Positions 31,797 through 52,780 are shown, counted from the stretch's first letter. The stretch is 64,000 bases of DNA from Acidimicrobiales bacterium (GCA_020846295.1 JADLEF010000088.1:6525-70524), one strand, 5' to 3'. A program made the numbers and translations. The notes: generated by a model from the sequence alone, not told the origin.

Positions 31797-31837
31797 GGTC
31801 GCACGCTACCGCCCGGCGGTTGTCGGGCGGGCGTCGT

Positions 31838-33311: not shown

Positions 33312-33676
33312 CGACACCTCCGCCGGGTCGATCGGAGCGGCCGGCTCGCTCGGGTTCGGCCGCTGGACGCAGCCACCGTTCGGTTGCTGCTCTTCCGTAG
33401 CGTAGCGCTGCGAAGTGCCTCAATTCGGTGACATCTGCACGCTTTTCCATAACTGCATTGGACGTATTCGTCGCGCGTCAACTGGTGTCGGTCGTGGCGG
33501 TCACGGCGCGGTCGGCGATCGATGTGGAGTGGAGCAATCCAGGTGCATGGCGCGATCGTCGTGCGCCCGATCGCTTCCGAACCGAGCGGTACGGTCGAGG
33601 GCGTCGGGGCCGAGGCCCTACGATGCGTGCGTTCGATCGCCGGTACGGCCGGCGGGCAGGCCGAAGGGGGAACGCC

Positions 33677-36158: not shown

Positions 36159-37502
36159 ATGTACCCCGACGCGTCCTCCCGGTCCGCCGAGCTGTACGAA
36201 CGGGCCCGACGGGTGCTGCCCGACGGTGTATCCCGCGGGACGGTGTTGGTCAACCCGTACCCGATCTACGTGGCGTCGGGCGCCGGGGCGTGGGTGACCG
36301 ACGTCGACGGCAACCGCTACCTCGACGCCAACAACAACTACACCGCCATCATCTTGGGTCATGCCCATCCGACCGTCATCGATGCGGTGGCGTCGCAGCT
36401 GAGCCGGGGAAGCGCCTTCTCCTTCGCCACCGAGGCGGAGGTGGCGCTGGCCGAGTTGCTCTGCGCCCGGGTGCCGCACTTCGAGCGCATCCGCTTCTGC
36501 AACTCCGGCACGGAGGCGGTGATGACCGCGGTCAAGGCGGCGCGCGCCTTCACCGGCCGGCCGCTCATCGCCAAGATCGAGGGCGGCTATCACGGCGCCT
36601 ACGACCACGTCGAGGTGTCCCTGGACGCGGGGCCGGACACGTGGGGGCCGGCCTCAGCCCCCACCGGGGTGCCCTACGCCGCCGGCGTACCGGACAGTGT
36701 GCTGGCCGAGACGGTCGTGCTGCCCTTCAACGACGCGGCGGCGGCCACCGCGCTGATCGAGGCCCATGGCGAGCGCCTCGCCGCCGTGTTGTTGGACACG
36801 CTGCCCTCCCGGGTGGGCATGCCCGCTCCCGATCCGGCCTTCCTCGATGCGATCTGGACGAGCGCCCGCAAGGCGGGCGCGCTGATCGTGGCCGACGAGG
36901 TGATCTCCTTCCGGCTCGGGCCCGCCGGCAACCTCCACCGTCTGGGTCGCACCCCCGATCTCACCGCCCTGGCCAAGATCATCGGCGGTGGGTTCCCCGT
37001 CGGCGCGGTGGCGGGCCGCAGCGAGGTGATGGACGTGTTCGCCGCCCTCGACGGTGCTCGGCCCCGGGTGCCAGCCGGCGGCACGTTCTCGGCCAACTCG
37101 GTGACCATGGTCGCCGGGCGGGCCTGTCTGGAACTGCTCGACGCCGCCGCCTTCGAGCGTCTCGCCACCATGGGCGAGCGGGTCCGTCGCGGCTTTCGGG
37201 CCATGTTCGACCAGCTCTCCCAGCCGGGCCAGGTCACCGGTGACGGATCGCTGTTCCGCCTGCACCCGCACGACCGCCCGCTGCGCGGCTACCGCGACGC
37301 CCGCCCGCAGGGTGAGGAGTCGGCGATGATGGGCCGGGTGCACCGCGAGCTGCTCAACCGGGGCGTGTACCTCACCACCTACGGGATGGGCTGTCTCTCG
37401 TTGGCCATGACCGACGAGGACCTCGACCACCTCCTCGATGCCGGGCAGGCTGCGTTCGCCGCGGCCCGCGCCGCGGGTCGAGGATCGGGCGCCGGGCGCT
37501 GA
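36159..37502 (+). CDS. Class III aminotransferase (glutamate-1-semialdehyde aminomutase-like)
   Basis: 447 aa. FCNSGTEAVM, VADEVISFR and the PLP-lysine context PDLTALAKIIGGGFPVGAVAGR. Confidence 0.85.
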   Translation: MYPDASSRSAELYERARRVLPDGVSRGTVLVNPYPIYVASGAGAWVTDVDGNRYLDANNNYTAIILGHAHPTVIDAVASQLSRGSAFSFATEAEVALAELLCARVPHFERIRFCNSGTEAVMTAVKAARAFTGRPLIAKIEGGYHGAYDHVEVSLDAGPDTWGPASAPTGVPYAAGVPDSVLAETVVLPFNDAAAATALIEAHGERLAAVLLDTLPSRVGMPAPDPAFLDAIWTSARKAGALIVADEVISFRLGPAGNLHRLGRTPDLTALAKIIGGGFPVGAVAGRSEVMDVFAALDGARPRVPAGGTFSANSVTMVAGRACLELLDAAAFERLATMGERVRRGFRAMFDQLSQPGQVTGDGSLFRLHPHDRPLRGYRDARPQGEESAMMGRVHRELLNRGVYLTTYGMGCLSLAMTDEDLDHLLDAGQAAFAAARAAGRGSGAGR

Positions 37503-37556: not shown

Positions 37557-38186
37557 GTGGCTGCTCCTACGCTGCCCCGCATGGAAGACGACGAACAGCA
37601 GGCGCCCGGTCCGGTCGACCTGCGCCGCATCGAGGCGGCGGTCCGAGAGATCCTCGCCGCCATCGGCGAGGACCCGGACCGGGACGGGCTGGTGCTGACC
37701 CCGGCGCGGGTCGCCCGCATGTACGCGGAGGTGTGCGGAGGGCTGCACCAGGACCCGGCCGCCCACCTGCAGGTGACCTTCGAGGAGGGTCACGACGAGA
37801 TGGTGATGGTGCGGGACATCCCCTTCGCTTCGCTTTGCGAGCACCACCTCGTCCCCTTCATCGGCAAGGCCCACGTCGCCTACATACCAGGTGGTACGGG
37901 AAGGGTCATCGGGCTGTCGAAGCTGGCCCGTCTCGTCGAGGGCTACGCCCGACGCCCGCAGGTGCAGGAGCGCCTGTCCACCCAGGTGGCGGACTCACTG
38001 GTCGACGCGCTGGACCCGCGCGGTGTGCTGGTGGTGATCGAGGCCGAGCACCTCTGCATGGCGATGCGCGGGGTGAACAAGCCGGGCGCCTCCACCGTGA
38101 CCTCCGTGGTGCGCGGCCACTTCCGCACCGACGCCCGGGCGCGGGCCGAGGCGATGGGCTTCATCATCGGCAACCGGGCGCGCTGA
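37557..38186 (+). CDS. folE: GTP cyclohydrolase I
   Basis: [46 protein letters not shown]-like and [12 protein letters not shown] motifs. Start is the GTG at 37557 or the ATG at 37581. Confidence 0.9.
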
Positions 38187-38950: not shown

Positions 38951-40129
38951 TCAGAACAGCGGGTCGGTGGCGTCGAGGCCGAGCAACACCCGGCCCGCGT
39001 CGAGGTCGTTGTAGGCGCCGACCATGACGTGTTGCGGCACGGCGCGCACGTCGGCCAGGTGTCGGTGCAGCGGTGAGGACGTGAAGTTGGCCGTGGTGCC
39101 GGCCGCGGTGCACAGGACCTGCACCGCCTCGACGCAGTTGGCCACTGCGTGGGTGCAGGCCAGGCGGGTGCGAGCGTGGGTCTCGGCGGGTACGGGGACA
39201 CCGGCCTCCGCCAGCGCCCAGACGGTCTGCACCATCTCGGCGGCGAAGGCCCATCCGGCGCCGACCAGCGCCTCGGCGCGCGCCATGGCCAGCTGTGCGT
39301 CGGGACGATCCCGCAACAGGGTGCGGCTCACCCGGGCCTTCTTGCCCTGGGCCAGGTCGGAGAACTCGGCGATGGCGGCGCGGGCGATGCCGGTGGCGAC
39401 ACCGACCTTGGGGAACGGGAAGCGCAGCGACGGCGGCAGCCGGAACAACGCGGTCTCCGGCACGGTGTCCCGTCCGTCTCGCACCACGCCCATGCGGCCG
39501 TCGGGGACGAAGGCGTCGTCCAAGGTCACGTCATGGGAGCCGGTGCCGCGCAGCCCGACGGTGTCCCACGTGTCGAGGATCGTGACCGCTTCGGCGGGCA
39601 GCAGCGCAAAGCAGAGCGGGCGCGGCTTGGGGCCCTCCACGGTGGCGCCGACCACGATCTCGTCCGCCGCCGGGCCACCGGTGACGAACGGCCAGCGGCC
39701 GCTGAGCCGCCAGCCTCCCTCCACCCGGCGGGCGCGGCCCAGCGCGGCGCCGGAGCCGGCCACGATGATGGCGGGGGATGAGGTGCACACCCGGCGCATC
39801 GTCTCCGCCGGGAGGTAGCCGGCGGAGATCTCGATCTCCTCGTTGAGGGTCATCGCCGCCCAGCCGGCCGAGCCGTCGACGCGGGCGATGCGCTCGACGA
39901 GCTCCATGAAGGCCAGGCCCGACGCTTCCTCGCCGCCGTAGGCCCGCGGTGCGAGCACGCGCAGCAGCCCGGCGTCGGCCAGCGCCCGCATCACCGCCTG
40001 GGCCGGACGGCGGGTGCGTTGGGTCTCCTCCACGTGCGCGGCGATGAGGGTGGCGAACTCGCCGGCGCGCTCGGCCGGGGACCGCGGGACCGGGGTGGCG
40101 AGTTCGACGGGCGCCGCATCGTGCTGCAT
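38951..40129 (-). CDS. Acyl-CoA dehydrogenase family protein
   Basis: 392 aa with ATG start. ACAD three-domain layout (LLRVLAPRAYGGEE, WRLSGRWPFVTG, a C-terminal helical domain). Confidence 0.8.
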   Translation of the reverse strand: MQHDAAPVELATPVPRSPAERAGEFATLIAAHVEETQRTRRPAQAVMRALADAGLLRVLAPRAYGGEEASGLAFMELVERIARVDGSAGWAAMTLNEEIEISAGYLPAETMRRVCTSSPAIIVAGSGAALGRARRVEGGWRLSGRWPFVTGGPAADEIVVGATVEGPKPRPLCFALLPAEAVTILDTWDTVGLRGTGSHDVTLDDAFVPDGRMGVVRDGRDTVPETALFRLPPSLRFPFPKVGVATGIARAAIAEFSDLAQGKKARVSRTLLRDRPDAQLAMARAEALVGAGWAFAAEMVQTVWALAEAGVPVPAETHARTRLACTHAVANCVEAVQVLCTAAGTTANFTSSPLHRHLADVRAVPQHVMVGAYNDLDAGRVLLGLDATDPLF

Positions 40130-40406
40130 GGGCCAGGACGCTACCCCGACCGGCGGAGCGCCACCCCGCCATACCTACCAGTACAGGCGGCATGCCACCG
40201 GGTATGAGGGATGAGCTGCCCACGCCGAATGGAGGACTTCGACGAACGGCCAAGGCGGTTGTCGCGCAGCGAAGCGTGTGGTGTGAACACCGCATTCGGT
40301 CCTCGAAGCCCGCTGGGTGGTGCTCAGACCGCGCGTTGGCGGTTCTTGCGCGCTGCAAGCGATCGGTGATTGACATCGTCGCCCAGGTCAGGTGGGGTAG
40401 CGCTAC

Positions 40407-40432
40407 GAACAGCGTTGAGAAAAACGCTGTTC
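40407..40432 (+). promoter_or_regulatory. Perfect 10-bp inverted repeat (candidate operator)
   Basis: GAACAGCGTT-gagaaa-AACGCTGTTC in a lower-GC stretch, 63 nt upstream of the ATG at 40495. Confidence 0.3.
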
Positions 40433-40494
40433 GCAATGACCATGCCGCCTGGCTTGGTCCGGCGCGCCCGCAAGGGCGCAACGAGGAGGGGTAC

Positions 40495-41517
40495 ATGATG
40501 GTTCGAGGCTCGCTCCGGGCAGGGGTCGCCGCGATCCTGCTCGGTCTGCTCGCAGCGCTAGGGCTCGCTTCGCAGGGCGCCGGTGCGCAGACCGCGCCCG
40601 GTCCGGCGGCACCGGAGGCACTGTTGTGGACGACGGTGGCGCCCGCGGTGACGGGTTGCGATTCGTCCAACACCACCGTCAGCGTGGCCGGTGGCGCGTT
40701 CGCACCCGCCAAGCTGGTCAACGTCGCGCCGGATACCTGGGCCAGTGGGGTGTGGTTGGCGGCGGAGCCGGGGGTGTCGCTCGGTGGCGCAGCACCCGCG
40801 TCGCCCTGCGGCTACGCCCGCTGGGATGGTCCGGGGCCCGAGGTGCAGCTCATCCCGCAACCGGTGCGCCGGTACGTCTACCGGATCGACGTCGGCTCGT
40901 TCTCGGCGGCGGCCGCGCGGCGCGGCCTCGAGCTCGAGCTGCGGGTGGACAACGTGGCCCGGGTGCGGGTGAACGGCGAGGCGGTCGGTGCCACCGCCCT
41001 CTGCGACGATGACGGCGAGGACTTCGCCACGCCGATCTCCTGTCCGCTGTCGGCCTTCCAGGGGCCGGCGGCCGCCTTCAGCGTCCCGGAGGCGGTGCTG
41101 GCCAAGCAGCAGACCCCCCTCGTCGAGATCGAGGTGCTCGATTACGGCTCCTACACCGGGCTGTCCTACACGATCCGCCGCGGGGAGGCCAGCACCCCGC
41201 CCCCGCCCCCGCCCACGTCCGCAGCGTGCGCGCCGACGGACAACGCGTCCTGTTCGCTGACCGTGACGGTGCCGAAGGGCGTCGCGGCGGGTACCGCCCG
41301 GTACTGCTACGCCCCGCCGGACGGCGAGGCACGGCAGCTGATCATCCCCACCGCCGGTGGCATGGTCTCGATCACGATGAAGGCCAACAGCTGGGTGGAC
41401 GCACCGGTGTCCTCGACGGGCACGATCTACTACCCCAACGAGTTCTGGTCGCTGGCGGTCGACGAGATCGGCGACCCGGAGCTGACCCGATGCCCGGGCG
41501 CGATCCCCGCCGGGTGA
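40495..41517 (+). CDS. Secreted hypothetical protein
   Basis: ATG at 40495 with RBS GAGGAGGGG. Signal peptide MMVRGSLRAGVAAILLGLLAALGLASQGAGA. Ten cysteines in the mature part, a poly-Pro linker (TPPPPPPT), and no recognisable domain. Confidence 0.65.
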   Translation: MMVRGSLRAGVAAILLGLLAALGLASQGAGAQTAPGPAAPEALLWTTVAPAVTGCDSSNTTVSVAGGAFAPAKLVNVAPDTWASGVWLAAEPGVSLGGAAPASPCGYARWDGPGPEVQLIPQPVRRYVYRIDVGSFSAAAARRGLELELRVDNVARVRVNGEAVGATALCDDDGEDFATPISCPLSAFQGPAAAFSVPEAVLAKQQTPLVEIEVLDYGSYTGLSYTIRRGEASTPPPPPPTSAACAPTDNASCSLTVTVPKGVAAGTARYCYAPPDGEARQLIIPTAGGMVSITMKANSWVDAPVSSTGTIYYPNEFWSLAVDEIGDPELTRCPGAIPAG

Positions 41518-41553
41518 TCAAGGCGGGCCGACGGCGCATCGGAGCGGGTTGAG

Positions 41554-41589
41554 GCGGCCATGCGGTGGGTAGTTCCGCCGCATGGCCGC
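41554..41589 (+). terminator. Strong hairpin after the secreted-protein gene
   Basis: Perfect 12-bp inverted repeat GCGGCCATGCGG / CCGCATGGCCGC with a 12-nt loop that can extend by 3 more pairs. It lies 36 nt after the stop at 41517. No U-tract. Confidence 0.45.
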
Positions 41590-41857
41590 AGAGCGAAGCG
41601 ACGATGAGCGAAGCGACGATGAGCGAGGCGACAGCGAGCAGGGGCCGTCCGCGCGCCAGTTGTTGCACTGGGCCACCGGTGACCGCGATGCGGAGGCGGA
41701 GGCCCTCGCCGACGACGCGGGGGTCGAGCCCGAAGCGGCGGAGGCGGCCGTCAAACGTGCCCACGGTGATCTCGGGACGGACCGCAGCGACACCGCCTCG
41801 GCTTCGGATGTGGCCGGCGTCGGCGACGCCCGAGCCGAGGCCCGCCGCCGCCGGTGA
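41582..41857 (+). CDS. Small acidic hypothetical protein
   Basis: 91-aa ORF with strong G/C third-position bias (LLHWATGDRDAEAEALADDAGVEPEAAEAAVKRAHGDLG). Its start codon lies inside the right arm of the upstream hairpin. Confidence 0.4.
   Translation: MAAERSDDERSDDERGDSEQGPSARQLLHWATGDRDAEAEALADDAGVEPEAAEAAVKRAHGDLGTDRSDTASASDVAGVGDARAEARRRR
41591..41635 (+). repeat. 15-bp tandem repeat, about 3 copies
   Basis: GAGCGAAGCGACGAT x2 (perfect) followed by GAGCGAGGCGACAGC. It encodes ERSDD-ERSDD-ERGDS in the 41582 frame. Confidence 0.8.
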
Positions 41858-41903: not shown

Positions 41904-42533
41904 ATGGCTCGCCTGCCGCTCGTGGACCCCGACGATCCCAACGCCGACGAGGCGGCCCGCACCCAGCTGCTGCGGGCCCGGGCGGCCAACGAGAAGAACC
42001 CGGACCTGCCGTGGCGCGACATCAACGTCGTGCAGGCGCTGGCCAACCATCCCCGGCTGTTGGAGGGCTTCACCGCGTTGTCGCGCGTCGCCTACGCCGG
42101 CAACAGCCTCACGCCCGGGCAGCGCGAGCTCGCCTGGTTGGGCACCTCGGCGCTGAACGACTGCCACTATTGACTTCCCACCCACACGGTGCTCGGTCGG
42201 AACGCCGGATTGTCCGAAGCCCAGATCGCCCACGTCGGTGACGAGTCACCGCCGGAGGGCACCTACGATGCCGCCTGCACCGCCCTGTTGCGCTACGTGC
42301 GGGCGTCGACCCGCATGGAACGCATCGACGACACGCTGTACGGCGCGTTGCTCGAGCACTTCAGCGAGCAGCAGATCATGGAGCTGTGCTTCGAGGTCGG
42401 CCTGGCGGGCACCATCAACCGGTTCCACGCCACCTTCCTGACCGACGTGGACGGCGAGACCCGCGCCTGCCCGCTGCCGCAACCCGTGCGCGACGCCGCC
42501 GAGCGTGGCTGGGAGCGTTCGGCCGGGACCTGA
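41904..42533 (+). CDS. AhpD-like / carboxymuconolactone decarboxylase family protein interrupted by in-frame TGA (selenocysteine candidate or pseudogene)
   Basis: ORFs 41904-42173 and 42189-42533 are in the same frame and together are collinear with the paralog at 30158-30718. The TGA at 42171-42173 falls in SALNDCHY[TGA]LPTHT, where the family has a Cys. Confidence 0.7.
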
Positions 42534-42542: not shown

Positions 42543-43442
42543 TCAGCCCCGCCCGCCGTGGGTGACCCCGACGAAGGCATCGGCCCCGCTCTGGTAGCGG
42601 AAGATGTTCTGCGCCGCGTTGCGGTTGACCAGCTCGCGGCCGAACATGGGGTGGCGCATGCTGCGCACCTCGTGTTCGATGGTGAACAGCACCGCCCCGC
42701 GGTCGAGGTCCACGATGTCCTGGAAGCGGTACTCGCTCTCGTTGGTCTCCATCGAGATCAGCCCACGCTCGGCCAGCACCCGGTAGGGCCGCGAGAAGTT
42801 GGCCAGGTAGACCGCGATGTGGTGTCCGTCGTAGGGCGCGATCGGGCCATCGGTCTCCACGAACCGCAGCGCCTGCGCCGTACCGACCCGTACGTCGGCG
42901 GCGGCGCGGCCGCCGAGGTCGAGCGTCGTGGCCGGCGCGTCGAGCACCTCGCGATAGAAGCGGGCGATGCCGGGCGCCGCGCCCGGGGAGACGTCGAACT
43001 CGACGTAGGGCAGGCCGAGGCGGAGACCGCCGAAGTCCTGTCCCGCCTCGTGGACCCGCAGTCGGTTGCCCCACGGGCAGGTGAGGGTCACGGTGCCGCC
43101 CTCGCCTTCCGCGCAGGTGTAGCGCGTCCCGGCCAGCCGGGCGCCGTCGTGCTTCTCCAGGCGCTGCAGCCGCTTGCGCAACTCCGCCAGGCTGGGCACG
43201 ACGACACCGATCGTGCCCCGAAGCACCTGGGCCTCCCGCTTGGGCAGGTGGAACTGTTGGGAGCCCAGGTTGACCCACATGTTGGCGGTGCCGAAGTCGA
43301 TGTAGGGGTCCCGGGTGAAGCCGAGACCGGTCACGTAGAACAGGGCGGCCAGCTCCTGGTCGGGCACGGTCACGTTGACGTGTTCCAGGGCGACGATGTT
43401 GCCCACGTCCTGCGTCGAGCGGTCGTACGGTGCATCGGCCAT
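42543..43442 (-). CDS. VOC (glyoxalase/bleomycin-resistance/dioxygenase) superfamily protein, two modules
   Basis: ATG at 43442 with a GGAGG RBS 7 nt upstream. Contains ALEHVNVTVPDQELAALFYVTGLGF and a second module LPYVEFDVSPGAAPGIARFYREVL. Confidence 0.6.
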   Translation of the reverse strand: MADAPYDRSTQDVGNIVALEHVNVTVPDQELAALFYVTGLGFTRDPYIDFGTANMWVNLGSQQFHLPKREAQVLRGTIGVVVPSLAELRKRLQRLEKHDGARLAGTRYTCAEGEGGTVTLTCPWGNRLRVHEAGQDFGGLRLGLPYVEFDVSPGAAPGIARFYREVLDAPATTLDLGGRAAADVRVGTAQALRFVETDGPIAPYDGHHIAVYLANFSRPYRVLAERGLISMETNESEYRFQDIVDLDRGAVLFTIEHEVRSMRHPMFGRELVNRNAAQNIFRYQSGADAFVGVTHGGRG

Positions 43443-43526
43443 GTTCAACCTCCAGACGGTGGAGGCCAGCGTAGGGCACAGGGCGGTCGCCGGGCCCGGG
43501 TCTCGCCCGGCGGGCTACGGTCGGGC

Positions 43527-44462
43527 ATGCGCATCGGTATCAACGGAACCGCCCTCGTGGCCAAGGCGTCGGTCGCCGCCGTCGTGGAGCACGCTCGCCA
43601 GGCCGAAGCCGACGGCTTCGACGCCTATTGGCTGGCCGAGCACCCCAGCGGCGGGTTCGACGCCCTCACGGTGCTGGGCATGGTCGGCCAGTCGGTCAGC
43701 CGCCTGGCCCTGGGCACCGCCGTCATCCCGACCTACCCGCGGCACCCGCTGGTGCTGGCCGGCCAGGCCCGCACGGTGGCATCGACCATGAGCGTGCCGC
43801 TCACCCTGGGCATCGGCCTGTCCCACCAGCCGATGCTGGCCGCGCTCGGCCTGCGCGACGACAAGCCGATCCGCCATCTGCGTGACTACCTCTCGGTGCT
43901 GCAACCGCTGCTCGAGCGGGGCGAGGTCGACCACGCGGGCCCGACGATCGAGTGCCGGGCCAAGCTGTTCGCGCCGCCCGAACCGGCGGTGCCCGTGGTC
44001 GTCGCCGCGCTCGGTCCCCAGATGCTGCGCCTGGCCGGCGCGCGCACCGCCGGCACCAGCCTGGCCTGGGTCGGCGTCAACACCATCCGCGACCACATCG
44101 TGCCCACCATCTCCGATGCGGCCGCGGCTGCGGGCCGGCCTGCGCCGCGCATCATCGCCACCCTGCCGATCTGCGTCACGGAGGACCCTGCGTCGGTGCG
44201 GGCCCGGATCAGCGCCGGGGCGGCGTGGTATGCCGAGCTGCCCTCCTACAAGGCGATGTTCGCCCGGGAGGGTGTGCAATCGCCGGGTGAGGTCGGCCTG
44301 GTCGGCTCGGAGTCGGAGGTCGAGGATCGCCTCGGCGAGCTGGCTGAGGCCGGTGTGACGGACTACTCCGCCTCGGAGTTCACGACGTCCCCGCAGGAGC
44401 AGGAGCAGACCAGGGCGCTGCTGCGCCGGGTGGCGAGGGCCACCGCCGGCCGCGTCGGCTGA
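43527..44462 (+). CDS. LLM-class F420-dependent oxidoreductase
   Basis: The ATG at 43527 gives MRIGINGTALV.... Clear paralog of 2831-3748 (ADGFDAYWLAEH, LTLGIGLSHQP, VAALGPQMLRLAG, AGVTDY). Confidence 0.85.
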   Translation: MRIGINGTALVAKASVAAVVEHARQAEADGFDAYWLAEHPSGGFDALTVLGMVGQSVSRLALGTAVIPTYPRHPLVLAGQARTVASTMSVPLTLGIGLSHQPMLAALGLRDDKPIRHLRDYLSVLQPLLERGEVDHAGPTIECRAKLFAPPEPAVPVVVAALGPQMLRLAGARTAGTSLAWVGVNTIRDHIVPTISDAAAAAGRPAPRIIATLPICVTEDPASVRARISAGAAWYAELPSYKAMFAREGVQSPGEVGLVGSESEVEDRLGELAEAGVTDYSASEFTTSPQEQEQTRALLRRVARATAGRVG

Positions 44463-44591
44463 ACCAGGTGATCGGGCGCTTCGTTCCCGGACCGCGCGGT
44501 ACGGTGGGGCGTGCGGGCCCCGCGGGGTCGGGTCGGGGCGCCGGTGGCCATCCTGCTCGGACGCAGAGCGTGGTCGAAGGAGGGGGTGTCA

Positions 44592-44615
44592 CAGCGAATC
44601 GACATCGATTCGCTG
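44592..44615 (+). promoter_or_regulatory. Perfect 11-bp inverted repeat (candidate operator or hairpin)
   Basis: CAGCGAATCGA-ca-TCGATTCGCTG, 112 nt upstream of the ATG at 44727. Confidence 0.35.
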
Positions 44616-44726
44616 CGAGGGGTCCCGCGCGCTCCTCGTCGCCCCGACTGCTCCACCGAGTGCCATACCGAATAGTACGGCCGAGGGGGATCGGCCCCTC
44701 GGGCCGGTGCCATAGGCTGCGCCCCC

Positions 44727-45806
44727 ATGGAATTCGGGATGTGCGTGATCACCAAGTTGGACCAGGCCGGCTTCGCCAAGCAGTGCGAGGACCTCGGCTT
44801 CGACATGGTGTGGGTGCCGGACAGCCAGATGATCTGGGGCGACTGCTACGCCTACCTCGCGCTCGCCGCCGAGCGCACCTCGAAGATCAAGCTCGCCACC
44901 GGGGTCGCCGTCGCCGGTACCCGGGCCGCGCCGGTGATCGCCCACTCCATCGCCTCGGTGGCCACGCTGGCGCCCGGGCGCGTGTCGCTCGGCATCGGGT
45001 CGGGCAACTCCGCCTACCGGTTCATGAACCTCAAGCCGTTGCCCATCAAGAAGTACGGCGACGAGATCCGCGCCATCCGCGGCCTGCTCGCCGGTGAGGA
45101 GGTCGAGTACACCTTCCGGGGGGTGACCGCGCCGATCCGTCTGCTCATGGCCGACCGGGGCTTCGTCAACCTCGAGCAGCCCATCCCGATGATCGTGTCG
45201 GGCTTCGGGCCCAAGGCCCAGGCGCTCGCGGGGCAGCTCGGCGACGGGCTCTTCTTCTCGCTGCCCAACGAGGAGCGCTCCATCCAGCGTTCGGTGGAGA
45301 CGGTGCGCCGGGCCGCGGCGGACGCCGGACGAACCGACGTGCAGGTCGACTCGCCCAGCTTCCCGATCGTCAACCTGCTCAACGTGATCATGCTCGACAA
45401 GGGCGAGGACATGCTCTCCGAACGGGTGATCGCCGAGCACGGCCCGTTCATCATCGCCGGGATGCACTACCTGTTCGACAGCGTGCGCCAGTACAACCGC
45501 ACGCCGCCCCGCCACCTGCTCGACGTGTGGGACGAGTACACCGCCATGATCGAGCGCACGCCCGAGCACCTGCGCCACATCCGCATCCACGACGGCCACT
45601 GCACGTACCTGCACCCCGACGAGGTGAAGCTCATCACCGAGAACCTGATCAAGGCGACCTGCGTGATCGGCCGGCCCGAGGAATGCCGTGAGCAGCTGCA
45701 CGAGATGCACCGCGCCGGCGTCGACCAGCTCGTCGTGCTGCCGTCGATGGGCTATCAGGAGGCGTATGCAGAGCGCTTCGCCCAGGAGATCATCGCCAAG
45801 TTCTAG
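44727..45806 (+). CDS. LLM-class flavin/F420-dependent oxidoreductase
   Basis: 359 aa. CEDLGFDMVWVPDSQ, RVSLGIGSGNS, VSGFGPKAQALAG. Confidence 0.85.
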   Translation: MEFGMCVITKLDQAGFAKQCEDLGFDMVWVPDSQMIWGDCYAYLALAAERTSKIKLATGVAVAGTRAAPVIAHSIASVATLAPGRVSLGIGSGNSAYRFMNLKPLPIKKYGDEIRAIRGLLAGEEVEYTFRGVTAPIRLLMADRGFVNLEQPIPMIVSGFGPKAQALAGQLGDGLFFSLPNEERSIQRSVETVRRAAADAGRTDVQVDSPSFPIVNLLNVIMLDKGEDMLSERVIAEHGPFIIAGMHYLFDSVRQYNRTPPRHLLDVWDEYTAMIERTPEHLRHIRIHDGHCTYLHPDEVKLITENLIKATCVIGRPEECREQLHEMHRAGVDQLVVLPSMGYQEAYAERFAQEIIAKF

Positions 45807-46630
45807 ACGCTGAACATGAACGACTGGCTGGCCATGCCGACGAGCAGGCCGGACTGGGTCCAGGCGCGCAGGTCGCCGTGCGCGGCCCCGTCGGTCACCG
45901 TGCCGAGCCGTATGTCGAGCAGGAGCCACTCGCTCGGCTCGAGCCCGGTGATGCGCACCGTGTTGTCGAGGCTCGACGCCGGCTTCTCGGTCTCCGACAG
46001 CACGAGGCGGAACCCGGCCGGCACGTAGTCGCCGAGCATGGCGATCCCGGCGGAGGTCTCGTGCACGCCGTCGGGCATGCGGACCCAGAACGCTGCCGTC
46101 CCGCGGTCGCGGTCGAAGCCGGCGACGCGAAGTTCCACCGTGCGATGGAACGACCCGTCGGGCTCCCAGGTCAGCTCGTAACCGCCGGACTCGTCGGGCC
46201 CCGGCACCACCGGCGGTTCGCCCCAGCGGTGGGCGTTCGCTCCCGGGCGCTGCCCGCAGGCGGCCAGGAACCGAGCCACGACGCGATCGCCGACGCTCGC
46301 CACCGCCGAGACCTGGCTCACCCGGTTGCCGGCCGAGCCCACGGTGACGGCATAGGAGACGACCTCGTCCTGCGCGGCGCGGCTCAGGTACTGCGCGGTG
46401 GCCCAGATCAGCGGTCGCCCGGTGGCCTGCTCCATGGCGGTGGTCGCCGCGGCGAGCGAGCAGCCGCCGTGCAGGTAGCCGGTGCGGCCGCAGATGCGGG
46501 GTCGAACGGTGAGCTCCCACCGGTCGGCGGCCTCGTCGGGCCGTCGCAGGCCGAGCCAGCCTCGATCGCCCAGCGGTCGTGATCCATCGGTCATCGCAGC
46601 ATGGTGCCCGATGGCGTCGGCCCCCGTCAT
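45803..46630 (-). CDS. Acyl-CoA thioesterase II-like (double hot-dog) protein
   Basis: 275 aa. The ATG at 46630 is in an ATGA overlap with the upstream gene. Contains GYLHGGCSLAAATTAME and a C-terminal LDNTVRI...DGAAHGDLRAWTQSG. Confidence 0.75.
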   Translation of the reverse strand: MTGADAIGHHAAMTDGSRPLGDRGWLGLRRPDEAADRWELTVRPRICGRTGYLHGGCSLAAATTAMEQATGRPLIWATAQYLSRAAQDEVVSYAVTVGSAGNRVSQVSAVASVGDRVVARFLAACGQRPGANAHRWGEPPVVPGPDESGGYELTWEPDGSFHRTVELRVAGFDRDRGTAAFWVRMPDGVHETSAGIAMLGDYVPAGFRLVLSETEKPASSLDNTVRITGLEPSEWLLLDIRLGTVTDGAAHGDLRAWTQSGLLVGMASQSFMFSV

Positions 46631-47643
46631 GAGCCGGTCATGGCCGCGAGTGAGAACAGCTCGTCGTAGGCGGCCAGGCCGGTCGGTTCACCCCGCTGCG
46701 CCACCCGCAGGAACACGATCTCGTCGGCCAAGCCCTCGTAGGCGGCGATGCGGGCGGCGCATTGCTGCGCGGTGCCGGTGATGGTCATGGTGTCGATGAC
46801 CTCGTCGGGCACCAGGTCCATCGCCTCGCGGGTTCGGCCGGCCGGCATCAGCGCCGAGGCCTGGTCGGCGAACTCGGCGAAGCCCAACTGGCGCAGCTGT
46901 GAGTCGTAGTACGGGTGGGGGACGGGGTGGAAGAGCCCGCAGATCGACAGCCGCACCGCATCTCGGGCCGCTTCCTCGTCGCCGTTGACGCTGAGCAGCG
47001 CGCCGATGGGGAACGCCAGCGCGTCGGGATCGCGCCCGGCCGAGACGGCGCCCGCCCGGGCGTTGGGCCGTACCAGGTCGGCCAGGAACGCCGTCGAGGT
47101 CATGATGCCCACGCCGACGCCGTCGGCCACCTCGCCGGCCAGCCGCACCATCTTGGGGCCGGAGGCGGAGAGGTAGACCGGCACGGCGGGCCGGGCGGGC
47201 TCCCACGAGGCGCGCCAGCGGATGCGGTGGACCGGCCCCTCGTAGCGCACCGGCTCGCCGGCCCCGGCCGCCACGACGCGCCGAACGATCTCCACGTAGT
47301 CGCGCATCTTGGCCAGCGGTCGCGACGAGTCGACGCCCATGTACCACTCGTTCAGGTGGCGGTTCCCGGTGCCGATGCCCAACGCGAAGCGGCCCCCGCT
47401 GATCTCGTCGAGATCACGGGCGGCGACCCCGGTGATCCACGGATCCCGGGCGTAGGCGTTCACCACGTAGGTACCGACCCGTATGGTGCGGGTGGCACCG
47501 ACGATGGCGGTGGCGGGCACCAGCGCGCTGCGCCCCGCCTCCACGGTGTGCACCGAGGAGAACCCGGCGGCCTCGGCGGCACGGGCCAGCGCCACCATCG
47601 TGGCGATCGAATCCTCGAAGCCGAGCAACAGTCCCAGTCGCAT
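46627..47643 (-). CDS. LLM-class flavin-dependent oxidoreductase
   Basis: 338 aa with ATG start. AEAAGFSSVHTVE, RFALGIGTGN, LSASGPKMVRLAGEVADG. Confidence 0.85.
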   Translation of the reverse strand: MRLGLLLGFEDSIATMVALARAAEAAGFSSVHTVEAGRSALVPATAIVGATRTIRVGTYVVNAYARDPWITGVAARDLDEISGGRFALGIGTGNRHLNEWYMGVDSSRPLAKMRDYVEIVRRVVAAGAGEPVRYEGPVHRIRWRASWEPARPAVPVYLSASGPKMVRLAGEVADGVGVGIMTSTAFLADLVRPNARAGAVSAGRDPDALAFPIGALLSVNGDEEAARDAVRLSICGLFHPVPHPYYDSQLRQLGFAEFADQASALMPAGRTREAMDLVPDEVIDTMTITGTAQQCAARIAAYEGLADEIVFLRVAQRGEPTGLAAYDELFSLAAMTGS

Positions 47644-47646
47644 GGT

Positions 47647-48435
47647 TCAGCGTCCCTTGAAGTCGGGGGTGCGCTTCTCGCGGAACGCCGCGACACCCTC
47701 TTTGAAGTCCTCGGTGGCCCGGCCCTGGGTGATGCCCCAGTGCTCGATCATCGCTGCGTCCATCGGCTCGCGGAGCAGGTTGCGCAGCACCGCCTGCTTG
47801 GCCATGGCCAGGTGCGCGGTGGGCCCGGTGGCGAGGCGGCCGGCGAGCGCGTGGGCGGTGGGCAGCAGCTGGTCGGGCTCGGTGACCTCGGCGATGAGCC
47901 CGGCGGTCACGGCCTCGTCGAGGGGGATGTCCTCGGCCAGGTAGAGCCAGCGCAGCGCCCGCCCGTACCCGACCAGCTGGGGAAGGGTCCAGGTGACGAG
48001 GTCGTCGGGGTGGATGGCGCGCTTGAGCCAGATCGGCAACAGGCGCGCGTCGGCGGCGCAGAGGCGGATGTCGCACAACAGGGCGAGGCCGAGCCCGCCA
48101 CCGGCCGCCACGCCGTTGACCGCGGCGATCGTCGGCTTGGGCACCTCGAGCAGCTCCACGCACCAGGTGAACAGCGGCTCCGCCCCCTTGGTCGGCCAGG
48201 GTCGCTGATCGGGGTCGGCCAGGTCGGCCCCCGAGCAGAAGGCCCGGCCGGTGCCGGTCATCACCATCGCCCGGCCCGCGTCGTCGGTGGCGAACTCGTT
48301 GATGAAGCGGCGGATCTCGTAGCGCATCCGGCCGTTGAAGGCGTTCAGCCGTTCGGGCCGGTTGAACCGCAGCTGCACCACGCCGCGCTCGTCCGCCTCG
48401 ATGGCGAGCGTCTCGTAGCCCTCGTAGCGTCCCAT
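47647..48435 (-). CDS. Enoyl-CoA hydratase/isomerase (crotonase) family protein
   Basis: The ATG at 48435 gives MGRYEGYETLAIE.... Contains RPERLNAF, GRAFCSGADL, AAVNGVAAGGG and EGVAAFREKR. Confidence 0.85.
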   Translation of the reverse strand: MGRYEGYETLAIEADERGVVQLRFNRPERLNAFNGRMRYEIRRFINEFATDDAGRAMVMTGTGRAFCSGADLADPDQRPWPTKGAEPLFTWCVELLEVPKPTIAAVNGVAAGGGLGLALLCDIRLCAADARLLPIWLKRAIHPDDLVTWTLPQLVGYGRALRWLYLAEDIPLDEAVTAGLIAEVTEPDQLLPTAHALAGRLATGPTAHLAMAKQAVLRNLLREPMDAAMIEHWGITQGRATEDFKEGVAAFREKRTPDFKGR

Positions 48436-48599
48436 GGCGGCGCATCGTAGGGCCGGGCGGCCCACCCTGCGCCAGGGAACGGCGGCGCCGACCCGCGTCG
48501 CCCACCCGACGCCGTCGTGCTCGCACGGCGTGGCGGTATGCTCACTCAAGGCATCGTGTCGACCGCCCGACCGCGGTGCATGCGAGAGGAACGACAACG

Positions 48600-50273
48600 A
48601 TGAAGTCCCGTGCGCGGAGCCGCCGCAGCGAGGCCGACACGAAACCCACCCGAGCCGCGGTCACCGCGTGGTTGGCGGCGCTGGTGGCCGCCCTCGGGCT
48701 GTCGATGGTCCCGGCCCGAACCGCCGCAGCGGACGCAGCGACGGTCAACAGCCTGCTCGACTGCCGCTTCGGTTCGGGCCAGGTGTTCGACATCGCGTTC
48801 GCCAAGAGCGGCACCCTGGGCGTGAACCGGACCCTGAACGTCACCGTCAGCGGGGTCCCGTACCAGAGCGCCACCAACCCGTTCGGGCCGCTGAACGGCG
48901 TGATCGCCCCGACGGACTTCTTCCAGTTCCACCCCAGCCAGACCAACCCGGGGAGCTACGCGCTGCACCTGCACGAGGCCGGCGGCGCGCTCAAGCGGGT
49001 GGTGGACGCCACCGGCAGCTTCGAGGTGGCCGGCCCCGACGTGCTGCTCTACCACGGCGGTGGGCAGACCGACACCCTGTTCACCACCCGTCAGGTGTGG
49101 CGCTACGGGCAGACCGGCTCCTTCGCGGTGACCCAGGAGAACCTGATCAACAACGAGGCGCTGCAATACACCTCGTGCGTCGGGCCCCTGCGCATGCCGA
49201 GCCCCGAGCGCTTCGAACCGCTGAGCCCCATCCGCGTGCTCGACACCCGGGAGGGTGCCGCCCTCGGCCCGTCGGTGGAACGCTCCCTCGTGCTCGCCGG
49301 GCAGCACGGCGTGCCCGCAACCGCGTCAGCGGTGGCGCTGAACATCACCGTCGACGCCCCGGCCGCCGACGGTTGGGTGGCGGCCTACCCGTGCGGCTCG
49401 ACCCCGGGCACCTCGACGCTCAACTTCGGTGCCCAGGAGACGGTGGCCAACCTCGCCATGGTGGCGCCTGGTGCGGGCGGCGCGGTGTGCTTCCGGTCCA
49501 CCGCGGCCACCCAGCTGGTGGTCGATCTCAACGGCTACCTCGATCCGAACGGCAGCGACGCCTACACCCCGGTCGTCCCGGCCCGGGTGTACGACAGCAG
49601 GGTGCCGGCGGTGGCGGTGCCCGCCGGTGGGGCCATCGCCATGCGGGTGGCGGGCTGGTACGGCACGCCGAACAGCAGCACGGCGGCCATGTTGAACGTG
49701 ACGGTCACCAACCCTGCCGCCGCCGGGTACGCCACGGTCTACCCGTGCGGTTCGGCCCGCCCGCTCGCCTCGAACGTCAACTTCCGGGCAGGTCAGACCG
49801 TGGCCAACGCCGCCGTCGGGCGCATCGGTGAGGGCGGGGCGGTGTGCATCTACGCGTCGGCGAGCGTCGACCTGGTCATCGACGTGACCGGCGCGTTCGG
49901 GCCCACCGGCGAGACCGTCCCGATGGCGGTCGCGCCGTTCCGGGCCGCGGACACCCGGGAGAGCGGGCGGCTGGCGGCGGGGGAGGTGCTGGTGGTGGAC
50001 CTCGCCGATCGGGACGGGCTGTACGGCGTGGTCCCGTCCGGTGCACTGCTCAACGTGACGGTCACCGAGCCGGTCGAGGCGGGGTTCCTGACCGTGTACG
50101 CCTGTGACAGCGAACGCCCGTGGGCCTCGAACCTGAACTTCCTGCCCGGTGAGACCGCGGCGAACTTCGCCATCGGCGCGGTGTCGGCCGGCGACCAGCG
50201 GGTGTGCCTGTTCAGCACGGCGACGACCCACGTGGTCGTCGACGTGAGCGGGGCGCTCGTCGCCTACGACTGA
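48600..50273 (+). CDS. Secreted protein with three tandem ~105-aa uncharacterised domains
   Basis: ATG at 48600 with RBS GAGAGGA. Basic N-terminus plus TM/signal segment (AAVTAWLAALVAALGLSMVPARTAAA), then a unique ~165-aa region, then three repeats. Confidence 0.7.
   Translation: MKSRARSRRSEADTKPTRAAVTAWLAALVAALGLSMVPARTAAADAATVNSLLDCRFGSGQVFDIAFAKSGTLGVNRTLNVTVSGVPYQSATNPFGPLNGVIAPTDFFQFHPSQTNPGSYALHLHEAGGALKRVVDATGSFEVAGPDVLLYHGGGQTDTLFTTRQVWRYGQTGSFAVTQENLINNEALQYTSCVGPLRMPSPERFEPLSPIRVLDTREGAALGPSVERSLVLAGQHGVPATASAVALNITVDAPAADGWVAAYPCGSTPGTSTLNFGAQETVANLAMVAPGAGGAVCFRSTAATQLVVDLNGYLDPNGSDAYTPVVPARVYDSRVPAVAVPAGGAIAMRVAGWYGTPNSSTAAMLNVTVTNPAAAGYATVYPCGSARPLASNVNFRAGQTVANAAVGRIGEGGAVCIYASASVDLVIDVTGAFGPTGETVPMAVAPFRAADTRESGRLAAGEVLVVDLADRDGLYGVVPSGALLNVTVTEPVEAGFLTVYACDSERPWASNLNFLPGETAANFAIGAVSAGDQRVCLFSTATTHVVVDVSGALVAYD
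49227..50270 (+). repeat. Three tandem protein-domain repeats inside CDS 48600-50273
   Basis: Units start near 49227, 49578 and 49935. Shared pattern: R(V/A).D(T/S)R ... LN(I/V)TV(T) ... G(W/Y/F)..(V/A)Y(P/A)C ... P..S(T/N)(L/V)NF..G(E/Q)T.AN ... VC ... VVD(L/V).G. Confidence 0.75.
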
Positions 50274-50363
50274 GGGCGGGGTGGGCCGGGTGGGCCGGGC
50301 CCCGGGTGGGTGCGTCGGGCTAGGTTCCTTGGCGCAGGGTCGACGTTCCCGGGGGAGATTGCC

Positions 50364-51527: not shown

Positions 51528-51546
51528 CCGATCGCACCCGACCGGC

Positions 51547-52767: not shown

Positions 52768-52780
52768 ACCGATCGGAACC

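What the first reader, a model, noticed from the sequence alone, without database searches (positions are those of the whole stretch)
41904..42533. In-frame TGA at the second Cys position of the CxxC redox motif of an AhpD-like protein: selenocysteine candidate
ORFs 41904-42173 and 42189-42533 share one frame. Joined, they align end-to-end with the intact paralog at 30158-30718: LPLVDP.. matches IPLVDP.., ALANHP.. matches TLANHT.., and ..QQIMELCFEVG matches ..QQLIEVCFTVG. The only interruption is the TGA at 42171-42173 in SALNDCHY[TGA]LPTHT.

AhpD/CMD proteins typically read N.C.YC...H at this point, so the TGA sits where the resolving or catalytic Cys is expected, giving CxxU. AhpD-like proteins are among the reported bacterial selenoprotein families.

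A hand-folded stem-loop starts 17 nt after the TGA, at 42191-42220 (GCT[cgg]TCGGA-acgccggattg-TCCGAAGC). It has 8 bp with a 3-nt bulge, and its loop contains GG and U, so it is in the range expected for a bacterial SECIS. The alternative is a recent TGC/TGT-to-TGA nonsense mutation, which would make it a pseudogene.
Basis: partly seen in the sequence, partly recalled or inferred. Interest (0 to 1): 0.7.

Follow-up and report, generated by a model that had tools for sequence, protein, structure and literature searches.

The report
Selenocysteine-containing AhpD-like redox protein gene
The apparent stop codon in the middle of this small antioxidant-type gene is almost certainly read as the rare amino acid selenocysteine, so this is one intact gene of an already known kind of selenoprotein that automatic annotation splits in two.

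Summary
Window 41904-42533 (+) is one reading frame with a single in-frame TGA at 42171-42173. The TGA sits at the second Cys of the AhpD/CMD signature: E75-x11-C87-H-Y-[TGA]90-x3-H94.

It is not a nonsense mutation.
- In 59 related loci (about 42-60% identical; Acidimicrobiia, Pseudonocardia, a Myxococcota MAG, soil metagenomes) the codon is TGA 57 times, TAG twice, and never Cys.
- Rare, more distant full-length homologues carry TGT or TGC there.
- dN/dS against a 95%-identical relative is 0.07 upstream and 0.065 downstream of the TGA.

A conserved hairpin follows the TGA: 42187-42207, an 8-bp stem with apical loop GGUCG, 21 nt downstream.
- It is 95% paired across the family, with compensatory changes at 4-5 of 8 pairs.
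- Its Gly codon is GGT in 58 of 58 genes.
- It meets the published bacterial SECIS constraints.
- It is absent from the Cys forms.

In Pseudonocardia hydrocarbonoxydans, tRNA-Sec lies about 40 nt upstream of the orthologue.

The window contains no selA, selB, selC or selD, so Sec machinery in this organism is inferred, not shown. The window's stem also has one C·A mismatch, shared across its clade.

Verdict: a real selenoprotein gene, and a new member of the known AhpD-like (CxxU) selenoprotein kind.

The parts
41904..42533 (+). Complete selenoprotein gene: 209 codons (Sec at codon 90) plus the terminating TGA at 42531-42533. AhpD-like/CMD family.
   Evidence: Single frame with one internal TGA. 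Pfam CMD E 5e-12 and TIGR00778 above cutoff. GC3 is 0.94 before and 0.90 after the TGA. dN/dS is 0.072 and 0.065 on the two sides. The N-terminus MARLPLVDPDDP is conserved in orthologues.
42171..42173 (+). In-frame TGA read as selenocysteine (U90), at the second position of C87-H-Y-U90.
   Evidence: TGA in 57 and TAG in 2 of 59 related loci, never Cys. Cys codons occur at the aligned position in more distant homologues. It aligns with the second Cys of CxxC in solved AhpD/CMD structures.
42126..42128 (+). Glu75 codon (GAG), the E of the E-x11-C-x2-C-x3-H proton-relay signature.
   Evidence: Invariant in the 12-sequence alignment. The signature is defined in PMC3141380.
42162..42164 (+). Cys87 codon (TGC), the first residue of the CxxU redox motif.
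   Evidence: Invariant.
42183..42185 (+). His94 codon (CAC), the H of CxxU-x3-H. It lies between the TGA and the first possible restart codon (GTG at 42189).
   Evidence: P92-T93-H94 are invariant as amino acids, while the third codon positions vary among relatives. These codons are therefore translated in this frame, which requires read-through of the TGA.
42187..42207 (+). Bacterial SECIS-type hairpin. 5' arm CGGUGCUC (42187-42194), apical loop GGUCG (42195-42199), 3' arm GAACGCCG (42200-42207). There is one C·A mismatch at 42192/42202. The loop starts 21 nt after the TGA.
   Evidence: - 38 of 59 relatives have a perfect 8-bp stem.
- 95.3% and 95.0% of cells are paired, against 21-65% when partners are slid. 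Pairs with changes on both sides number 5 of 8 and 4 of 8. Covariation score and percent paired: 0 of 500 shuffles reach the observed value.
- The Gly codon in the loop is GGT in 58 of 58 genes, against 13% GGT elsewhere in the same genes.
- There are no nucleotide differences at 42156-42241 against L073, which shows 69 differences over the whole gene.
- The local fold is -9.1 kcal/mol.
- It meets the bSECIS constraints in PMC13188914.
- It is absent from the Cys-form homologues.

Best explanation
41904-42533 (+) is one gene for a 209-residue AhpD-like/CMD-family thiol-selenol oxidoreductase. The UGA at 42171-42173 is recoded to selenocysteine.

Mechanism (inferred from the established bacterial Sec pathway):
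1. While the ribosome is at the UGA, the mRNA hairpin at 42187-42207 (apical loop GGUCG, 21 nt downstream) binds the Sec-specific elongation factor SelB carrying Sec-tRNA(Sec).
2. This delivers Sec in competition with release factor 2.
3. Translation then continues through LPTH... to the true stop at 42531-42533.

In the protein, Sec90 replaces the second residue of the CxxC redox pair (C87-H-Y-U90). It sits with Glu75, Tyr89 and His94 in the arrangement that forms the AhpD proton relay. The protein most likely cycles between a selenol/thiol form and a selenenylsulfide form, either to reduce a peroxiredoxin partner or a peroxide/disulfide substrate.

Shown here:
- conservation of the stop codon;
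- translation of both halves under purifying selection;
- a covarying hairpin that is tied to the stop codon;
- selC adjacent to the gene in relatives.

Inferred:
- SelB binding;
- actual Se incorporation;
- the redox substrate;
- the presence of selA/B/C/D in this organism.
For: 1. The stop is conserved. 57 TGA, 2 TAG and 0 Cys codons occur at this codon in 59 related loci across Acidimicrobiia, Pseudonocardia, a Myxococcota MAG and many soil metagenomes. Gene callers truncate nearly all database homologues at this point.
2. There is a Sec/Cys pair. Full-length homologues P0063 (CHYC, TGT), P0070 (CRYC, TGC) and L013 (TGC) carry Cys at the aligned site.
3. Both halves are translated. dN/dS is 0.072 (N part) and 0.065 (C part) against L073. 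P-T-H, between the TGA and any restart codon, is invariant while its third codon positions vary.
4. The RNA element is supported.
   - The hairpin is 95% paired, with compensatory changes at 4-5 of 8 pairs; percent paired and covariation score beat all 500 shuffles, and every measure exceeds all slid controls.
   - GGT occurs in 58 of 58 genes, against a 13% background.
   - dS is 0.05 in codons 85-113, against 0.54 elsewhere.
   - The hairpin is lost in the Cys forms.
   - It satisfies the published bSECIS loop, stem, spacing and energy constraints.
5. Sec decoding is shown in relatives.
   - tRNA-Sec (RF01852, 73.4 and 68.4 bits) lies about 40 nt upstream of the orthologue in P. hydrocarbonoxydans NBRC 14498 and in a Pseudonocardiales MAG.
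   - The L001 contig also carries a formate dehydrogenase with 'ARI*HS'. Its TGA is followed by a GUCCCC-GGUCU-GGGGAC hairpin.
6. TGA is the normal stop in this window: 40 of 42 genes. Recoding must therefore be site-specific.
7. The active-site signature E-x11-C-x-Y-U-x3-H matches the AhpD/PA0269 proton relay.
8. AhpD-like and CMD-like CxxU proteins are established selenoprotein families.
Against: - No selA, selB, selD or tRNA-Sec lies in the 64-kb window. The rest of the genome could not be searched, so Sec decoding in this organism is inferred.
- The window's hairpin has an internal C·A mismatch (42192/42202), because AGC (Ser) became AAC (Asn). It is not the minimum-energy fold of the 45-nt segment. 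The same mismatch is kept in L073 (95% aa identity) and L074 (75%), both with an intact TGA and ORF.
- Folding energies are not better than shuffled GC-rich sequence (z-scores -1.7 to +1.2). The case for structure rests on covariation.
- Each sequence was assigned to the 4-nt or 5-nt loop register by its better stem. This slightly favours pairing counts.
- There is no experimental evidence of selenium incorporation.
Confidence: 0.88

Rival explanations
1. Relic in a lineage that recently lost Sec decoding. The family is a true selenoprotein family, but this organism no longer has functional selA/B/C/D, or its weakened hairpin no longer works. The gene then terminates at 42173 and is on its way to decay.
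For: No Sec machinery lies in the window. The window clade's stem has a C·A mismatch and folds less stably: -9.1 kcal/mol locally, and it is not the MFE of the 45-nt segment.
Against: - The window and L073 differ at 69 of 630 nt, yet dN/dS downstream of the TGA is 0.065. The 86 nt around the TGA and hairpin show no change at all. Selection has therefore acted on both the C-terminal half and the RNA element throughout that divergence.
- The mismatch is shared with L074 at 75% aa identity, which has an intact TGA and ORF.
- Six population variants (L067-L072) show no disruptions.
Confidence: 0.06
2. Recent TGC/TGT-to-TGA nonsense mutation, making this a pseudogene.
For: A single substitution from TGC or TGT gives TGA. 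Gene callers report two ORFs.
Against: - The stop is present in 59 of 59 related loci down to about 42% identity, with no Cys codon among them.
- Purifying selection is equal on both sides.
- A covarying hairpin is tied to the stop.
Confidence: 0.01
3. A genuinely split gene. UGA terminates an 89-residue N-terminal peptide, and a separate 114-residue C-terminal protein starts at GTG 42189. The two associate non-covalently.
For: A GTG lies 16 nt after the TGA. Databases list the two halves as separate proteins.
Against: - The two parts are always in the same frame, separated by exactly one stop codon.
- The invariant P-T-H codons, including proton-relay His94, lie between the stop and the nearest start. 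They evolve like translated codons.
- The position of the nearest start codon varies among relatives.
- Cys-form homologues are single full-length proteins.
- A split would break the CxxC-x3-H motif across two chains.
Confidence: 0.03
4. Read-through of the UGA by a standard amino acid (Trp, Cys or Gly through near-cognate or suppressor tRNA) rather than selenocysteine.
For: Read-through alone would explain the conserved frame and the selection on both halves.
Against: - TGA ends 40 of 42 genes in this window, so there is no general reassignment.
- The downstream hairpin has the bSECIS form with a GGUC loop, like the hairpin after the formate dehydrogenase Sec codon on contig L001.
- tRNA-Sec is adjacent to the orthologue in two genomes.
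- The site is the redox Cys position, where Sec/Cys exchange is the known pattern.
Confidence: 0.02

Closest known systems
AhpD-like / CMD-like selenoproteins with a CxxU motif (AhpD-like 1 COG2128 and AhpD-like 2 pfam02627 of the Sargasso Sea and GOS selenoproteomes; 'CMD-like protein PF02627 CxxU' in the 2026 review)
   Same: Same Pfam domain (PF02627). Sec replaces the second Cys of CxxC. The UGA is followed immediately by a small hairpin inside the coding region. Cys-containing homologues exist.
   Different: - This subfamily (NDCHYU[IVL]PTH, about 200-225 residues, with the C-terminal motif NRFHATF) matches no selenoprotein-specific NCBIfam model above cutoff: NF041238 scores 20.5 of 175 bits, NF053654 20.4 of 310, TIGR01926 37.3 of 81.8.
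- It comes mainly from high-GC soil Actinomycetota rather than marine or deltaproteobacterial sources.
- It is almost exclusively in the Sec form in the data searched: 59 stop-codon forms against a handful of Cys forms.
Mycobacterium tuberculosis AhpD and Pseudomonas aeruginosa PA0269 (PDB 2o4d), the characterised Cys-form AhpD-like proteins
   Same: The E-x11-C-x2-C-x3-H proton-relay signature is kept. PA0269 also has Tyr before the second Cys (C-A-Y-C against C-H-Y-U). The profile-to-PDB match to 2o4d has E 1.6e-14, with the Sec column on the second Cys.
   Different: Sec stands in place of Cys. Overall identity is low. No ahpC lies nearby: the neighbours are acyl-CoA dehydrogenase, glyoxalase-like and luciferase-like genes. 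The physiological partner or substrate is therefore unknown.
Bacterial SECIS elements (E. coli fdhF type; the bSECIS consensus model)
   Same: The hairpin is in the coding sequence just after the UGA. The apical loop begins GGU. Loop length is 4-5 nt, the stem is 8 bp, spacing is 21 nt and the local fold is at most -7.5 kcal/mol; all are within the published constraints. A GGUC loop also follows the formate dehydrogenase Sec codon on contig L001. From my own recollection, not checked here, the E. coli fdhF minihelix also has a GGUC loop.
   Different: The loop starts one codon further from the UGA than in the L001 formate dehydrogenase (nt 25 against nt 22, counted from the U). No bulged U is evident. 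The window's copy has a C·A mismatch inside the stem.
Natural recoding of codons other than UGA to Sec (Mukai et al. 2016, as cited in PMC10778597 and PMC8124441)
   Same: Two orthologues (L021, L022) carry TAG at the Sec codon. Their hairpin is intact, they are under purifying selection, and a TGA is the true terminator.
   Different: This does not concern the window gene itself, which uses TGA. No tRNA-Sec with a CUA anticodon could be looked for in those short contigs.

Membership tests
AhpD-like / carboxymuconolactone decarboxylase (CMD) superfamily | Significant match to Pfam PF02627 (CMD) or the TIGR00778 AhpD core domain above the curated cutoff | tested here: met
   PF02627 scores 46 bits (cutoff 23), E 5.4e-12. 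TIGR00778 scores 36.5 bits (cutoff 27.8). The profile hits solved AhpD/CMD structures at E 1e-15 to 1e-11.
AhpD-like / carboxymuconolactone decarboxylase (CMD) superfamily | Proton-relay signature Glu-x11-Cys-x-x-Cys-x3-His | tested here: met
   E75, C87, U90 (in place of Cys) and H94 are present, all invariant in 12 orthologues. The signature is as described in PMC3141380.
AhpD-like / carboxymuconolactone decarboxylase (CMD) superfamily | All-helical AhpD fold with the two-helix catalytic hairpin | not tested
The fold is inferred only from sequence matches to solved structures.
AhpD-like / carboxymuconolactone decarboxylase (CMD) superfamily | Peroxidase or AhpC-reductase activity | not testable with these tools
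   This needs an enzyme assay. No ahpC lies next to the gene.
Bacterial selenoprotein (UGA-Sec with bSECIS) | In-frame UGA conserved among orthologues, with Cys in some homologues at the same position | tested here: met
   57 TGA and 2 TAG in 59 loci. Cys codons are in L076 (TGT), L077/L078 (TGC) and L013 (TGC).
Bacterial selenoprotein (UGA-Sec with bSECIS) | Sequence downstream of the UGA is translated and under purifying selection | tested here: met
   dN/dS is 0.065 downstream and 0.072 upstream. GC3 is 0.90 downstream.
Bacterial selenoprotein (UGA-Sec with bSECIS) | [quoted passage not shown] | tested here: met
   Loop GGUCG; 8-position stem with one C·A mismatch; 21-nt spacing; -9.1 kcal/mol. 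The constraints are from PMC13188914. Covariation supports the stem family-wide.
Bacterial selenoprotein (UGA-Sec with bSECIS) | Sec machinery (selA, selB, selC, selD) in the same genome | not testable with these tools
   None lies in the 64-kb window, and the rest of the genome is not available. In relatives, tRNA-Sec is adjacent to the orthologue in L008 and L009, and a Sec-type formate dehydrogenase is on L001.
Bacterial selenoprotein (UGA-Sec with bSECIS) | Selenium actually incorporated at the UGA position | not testable with these tools
   This requires 75Se labelling or mass spectrometry.
Curated selenoprotein subfamilies NF041238 (AhpD_rel_CFYUT), NF053654 (YciW-related) and TIGR01926 (peroxidase-related enzyme) | Whole-protein score above the model's curated cutoff | tested here: not met
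   Scores are 20.5 against 175, 20.4 against 310 and 37.3 against 81.8 bits. The protein is related to these curated subfamilies but is not a member of any of them.

The most novel reading that the evidence does not exclude
This gene may belong to a distinct, essentially Sec-only clade of AhpD-like proteins in aerobic, high-GC soil Actinomycetota (Acidimicrobiia, Pseudonocardiales) and a few other bacteria. No curated model recognises the clade.

The clade may be one of the genes that keeps the Sec-decoding trait alive in these lineages. selC sits immediately upstream of it in Pseudonocardia.

Two members have switched the Sec codon from UGA to UAG while keeping the same hairpin. That would be a natural case of SECIS-directed UAG-to-Sec recoding within one orthologous family.
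Probability: 0.4. Interest if true: 0.55.

Novelty: new member of a known kind. Interest (0 to 1): 0.38.

Why it matters
**Annotation.** The gene and about 60 relatives found here are split or truncated in public protein sets. Joining them recovers a complete redox enzyme and marks these Actinomycetota as Sec users.

**A defined SECIS.** The family gives a compact hairpin for high-GC Actinomycetota: CUC-GGUC(G)-GAG core, 8-bp stem, 21 nt after the UGA. It is well supported by covariation and could improve selenoprotein prediction in these genomes.

**Biology.**
- Sec in place of the second Cys of the AhpD redox pair suggests selection for a more reactive peroxide or disulfide reductase in aerobic soil bacteria.
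- The selC linkage in Pseudonocardia and the two TAG variants offer small natural experiments on how Sec decoding is kept and how it is recoded.

None of this changes current understanding of selenoproteins. It extends a known family.

Tried and rejected
1. On 32 relatives it is 66% paired with covariation 0.073, against 95% and 0.391 for the 42187-42207 hairpin. The two compete for the same bases. Rejected.
2. Rfam scan of the window at gathering thresholds found nothing. No Rfam family matched this hairpin at gathering threshold.
3. Sec machinery in the window. ARAGORN found no tRNA-Sec. Pfam scans of about 50 ORFs found no SelA, SelB or SelD.
4. A second selenoprotein gene in the window. 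A screen of all TGA codons flanked by coding-like frames found only true gene junctions apart from this gene.
5. sel genes next to selC in L008 and L009. The flanking ORFs gave only AOX, STAS and PALP hits.
6. Thermodynamic significance of the hairpin. z-scores were not significant in this GC-rich sequence, so I relied on covariation and synonymous-site constraint.
The C-terminal 119 residues were used instead.
8. Structure prediction of the joined protein was not attempted, because the tool states the same input restriction.
9. The original paper on natural UAG/sense-codon Sec recoding is not held. Secondary citations were used.
10. The exact taxon of the window could not be determined.

Full report
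**1. The observation**

Window 41904-42533 (+) translates in one frame to 209 codons. There is a single internal stop, TGA at 42171-42173, in the context ...GTSALNDCHY*LPTHTVLGRN....

- With Cys substituted at the stop, the protein matches Pfam CMD (PF02627, E 5.4e-12) and the AhpD core domain TIGR00778 above its cutoff.
- A profile of the family hits solved AhpD/CMD structures: Atu0492 2gmy at E 1e-15, PA0269 2o4d at 1.6e-14 and AhpD 6e8l at 1.9e-11. The stop column falls on the second Cys of CxxC, with NDCHY[*]IPTH aligned to NGCAFCVDMH.
- The full signature is E75-x11-C87-H-Y-U90-x3-H94. This is the Glu/Cys/Cys/His proton relay described for M. tuberculosis AhpD and PA0269, and PA0269 likewise has Tyr before the second Cys.

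Two details of the finding need correction.

- The paralog at 30158-30718 is on the minus strand. It is a distant relative (29% identity, E 1e-12) that lacks the second Cys.
- The hand-folded hairpin is dealt with in section 3.

**2. Not a nonsense mutation**

A first protein search gave a striking pattern. Of 61 hits, 60 are 114-137 residues long and cover only the part after the TGA, so gene callers truncate the whole family at this point.

I fetched DNA for related loci from a genome collection and from metagenomes.

- All 59 loci with the motif C-x-Y-[stop]-x-P-[T/A]-H carry a stop at the same codon: 57 TGA, 2 TAG, no Cys codon.
- They come from Acidimicrobiia/Acidimicrobiales MAGs, Pseudonocardia hydrocarbonoxydans NBRC 14498 (a cultured isolate), Pseudonocardia MAGs, a Myxococcota MAG and many soil metagenomes. 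Their identity to the window protein is about 42-60%.

An exhaustive phmmer search with the C-terminal 119 residues again found mostly truncated fragments. It also found two full-length homologues with Cys at the site: P0063 (CHYC, codon TGT) and P0070 (CRYC, TGC). A more distant homologue, L013, has TGC. This is the Sec/Cys pairing typical of selenoprotein families.

Both halves are under the same selection. Against L073 (95% aa identity, 69 nt differences), dN/dS is 0.072 for codons 1-89 and 0.065 for codons 91-209. GC3 is 0.94 before and 0.90 after the TGA.

The codons for P92-T93-H94 lie between the TGA and the first possible restart (GTG at 42189). They are invariant as amino acids, while their third positions vary among relatives. 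They are therefore translated in this frame, which requires read-through.

TGA terminates 40 of 42 Pfam-supported genes in the window, including this gene itself. The read-through is therefore site-specific.

**3. The recoding signal**

All relatives share a hairpin that begins 16 nt after the stop codon. In the window it is:

- 5' arm CGGUGCUC (42187-42194);
- loop GGUCG (42195-42199);
- 3' arm GAACGCCG (42200-42207).

The core CUC-GGU-CG (the Leu-Gly-Arg codons) is nearly invariant at the nucleotide level. The Gly codon is GGT in 58 of 58 genes, although GGT makes up only 13% of the other Gly codons in the same genes.

The outer stem varies with compensation:

| Loci | 5' arm | 3' arm |
|---|---|---|
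| most | GGUGCUC | GAGCGCC |
| L008, L009, L012 | GGUGGCC | GGCCACC |
| L010, L011 | ACGUCUC | GAGACGU |
| many | GCUGCUC | GAGCAGC |
| L003 | GGUGCUG | CAGCGCC |

These changes often come through coordinated amino-acid replacements in both arms. There are two registers: loop GGUCG with Arg CGG (34 sequences) and loop GGUC with Arg CGA (25 sequences). A perfect 8-bp stem is present in 38 of 59 sequences.

On codon-aligned, ungapped alignments the counts are as follows:

| Register | Cells paired | Paired when partners are slid | Pairs with changes on both sides | Shuffles reaching observed covariation |
|---|---|---|---|---|
| 5-nt loop | 95.3% | 37-50% | 5 of 8 | 0 of 500 |
| 4-nt loop | 95.0% | 21-65% | 4 of 8 | 0 of 500 |

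One caveat applies: each sequence was placed in the register with the better stem, which slightly favours pairing.

Further evidence for nucleotide-level constraint and function:

- Between the window and L073 there is no difference at all in 42156-42241, while the rest of the gene differs at 11% of sites. dS is 0.05 in codons 85-113 against 0.54 elsewhere.
- The Cys-form homologues lack the hairpin. They have 0-1 contiguous pairs in the same register, and the GGT is lost in L077.
[quoted passage not shown] The window's values are a 5-nt loop, 21-nt spacing and -9.1 kcal/mol for the local fold.

It competes for the same bases. I reject it as the SECIS.

Folding-energy z-scores are uninformative in this GC-rich context.

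**4. Sec decoding in the lineage**

The window contains no tRNA-Sec and no SelA, SelB or SelD. It has no other selenoprotein candidate. This is the main gap.

In relatives the evidence is direct.

- A tRNA-Sec gene (anticodon TCA; Rfam RF01852, 73.4 and 68.4 bits) lies about 40 nt upstream of the orthologue in P. hydrocarbonoxydans (L008 2868-2959; gene starts at 3001) and in a Pseudonocardiales MAG (L009 880-971).
- Contig L001 carries the orthologue and a formate dehydrogenase alpha subunit with an in-frame TGA at the canonical Sec site (ENQARI*HSATV). That TGA is followed by a GUCCCC-GGUCU-GGGGAC hairpin, the same GGUC loop type.

**5. The window's own copy**

Its stem has one C·A mismatch (42192/42202), because the usual AGC (Ser) is AAC (Asn).

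- The same state is found in L073 (95% aa identity) and L074 (75%).
- L075 (75%) has the perfect stem.
- All of them keep the TGA and an intact frame.
- Six near-identical population variants from other samples (L067-L072) show 1-5 substitutions and no disruption.

The mismatch therefore looks tolerated rather than a sign of decay. It could still lower efficiency.

**6. Context**

The neighbours are ordinary metabolic genes:

- class-III aminotransferase at 36159-37502;
- GTP cyclohydrolase I at 37557-38186;
- acyl-CoA dehydrogenase at 38951-40129 (-);
- two ORFs without Pfam hits at 40192-41857;
- a glyoxalase-like gene at 42543-43448 (-);
- luciferase-like monooxygenases at 43515-44462 and 44727-45806.

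No ahpC or peroxiredoxin is adjacent, so the redox partner is unknown. The window has 72% GC and a conservon-like operon, so it is most likely from Actinomycetota.

**7. Comparison with what is known**

AhpD-like (COG2128) and CMD-like (PF02627) proteins with a CxxU motif are long-established bacterial selenoprotein families. This gene works like them and meets the tested family criteria.

It does not reach the cutoffs of the curated selenoprotein-specific models NF041238, NF053654 or TIGR01926. It is therefore a separate subfamily that appears to lack a dedicated model. I could not check RefSeq or BSepDB for existing annotation.

I rate it a new member of a known kind. It is a solid annotation correction with a nicely documented SECIS, but it will not surprise a specialist.

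**8. Verdict**

The SECIS location and the paralog strand are corrected.

- Confidence that the family is a selenoprotein family with this SECIS: about 0.95.
- Confidence that the window's copy is a functional Sec gene: about 0.88. It is limited by the unseen Sec machinery and the stem mismatch.

Noticed in passing
L021 1753-1755 and L022 1753-1755 (metagenome contigs Ga0308175_100036107 and Ga0136846_1116033): Two orthologues have TAG instead of TGA at the Sec codon. Their hairpin (GCUGCUC-GGUC-GAGCAGC) is intact and the gene ends with TGA. They differ from each other by 34 synonymous and 7 non-synonymous changes (dN/dS 0.014 and 0.12). The TAG form is therefore maintained by selection, which is consistent with natural UAG-to-Sec recoding as cited in PMC10778597 and PMC8124441.
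   Followed up: partly
L008 2868-2959 (Pseudonocardia hydrocarbonoxydans NBRC 14498, NZ_BJNG01000010.1) and L009 880-971: The tRNA-Sec gene (selC, anticodon TCA; Rfam 73.4 and 68.4 bits) lies about 40 nt upstream of the AhpD-like selenoprotein gene on the same strand. This is a tight selC-selenoprotein linkage. No selA, selB or selD was found in the few kb of flank available.
   Followed up: partly
L001 1-701 (-), TGA at 134-132: A formate dehydrogenase alpha subunit is called as two genes (189 aa and 848 aa). They are joined by an in-frame TGA at the canonical Sec site (ENQARI*HSATV). The TGA is followed by a GUCCCC-GGUCU-GGGGAC hairpin. The gene is on the same contig as an orthologue of the AhpD-like gene.
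   Followed up: yes
L076 1446-2030; L077 460-999; L078 223-762: These are rare full-length Cys forms of the family (CHYC with TGT; CRYC with TGC). They have lost the downstream hairpin and, in L077 and L078, the GGT codon. They serve as a natural control for the SECIS assignment.
   Followed up: yes
window 27348-27426 (-): ARAGORN calls a 79-nt tRNA-Ile (GAT) here. It lies inside a well-supported amidohydrolase gene on the opposite strand (26737-28674 +, Amidohydro_3 E 1.4e-55). Rfam finds no tRNA in the window at gathering score. It is probably a false positive.
   Followed up: partly
window 22420-26542 (-): A conservon-like operon: a sensor kinase with a NIT domain (23783-26542), a Roadblock/LC7 protein (23361-23786) and an ATP_bind_1 GTPase-like protein (22420-23139). 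To my knowledge this arrangement is typical of Actinomycetota, which helps place the window taxonomically.
   Followed up: no
window 29730-34531: Other CMD-family genes cluster near the paralog. The Cys-poor paralog is at 30158-30718 (-), next to a MetE-like gene (30789-31796 -). A 367-aa protein with two CMD domains resembling PcaC is at 33428-34531 (+) (TIGR02425, 150 bits, just under the 155.7 cutoff). There is also a weak Sulf_transp (YeeE/YedE-like) match at 31838-32896 (-), below the Pfam cutoff.
   Followed up: partly
window 43515-58716: A dense run of catabolic-type genes: four luciferase-like monooxygenases, family III CoA-transferases, acyl-CoA dehydrogenase, enoyl-CoA hydratase, a Rieske ring-hydroxylating oxygenase, amidohydrolases and a thioesterase. 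It looks like a degradation island. No link to the selenoprotein was established.
   Followed up: no
L060 about 240-778: One metagenomic relative appears frameshifted upstream of the motif; the N-terminal part reads out of frame. It is either a pseudogene or an assembly error.
   Followed up: no
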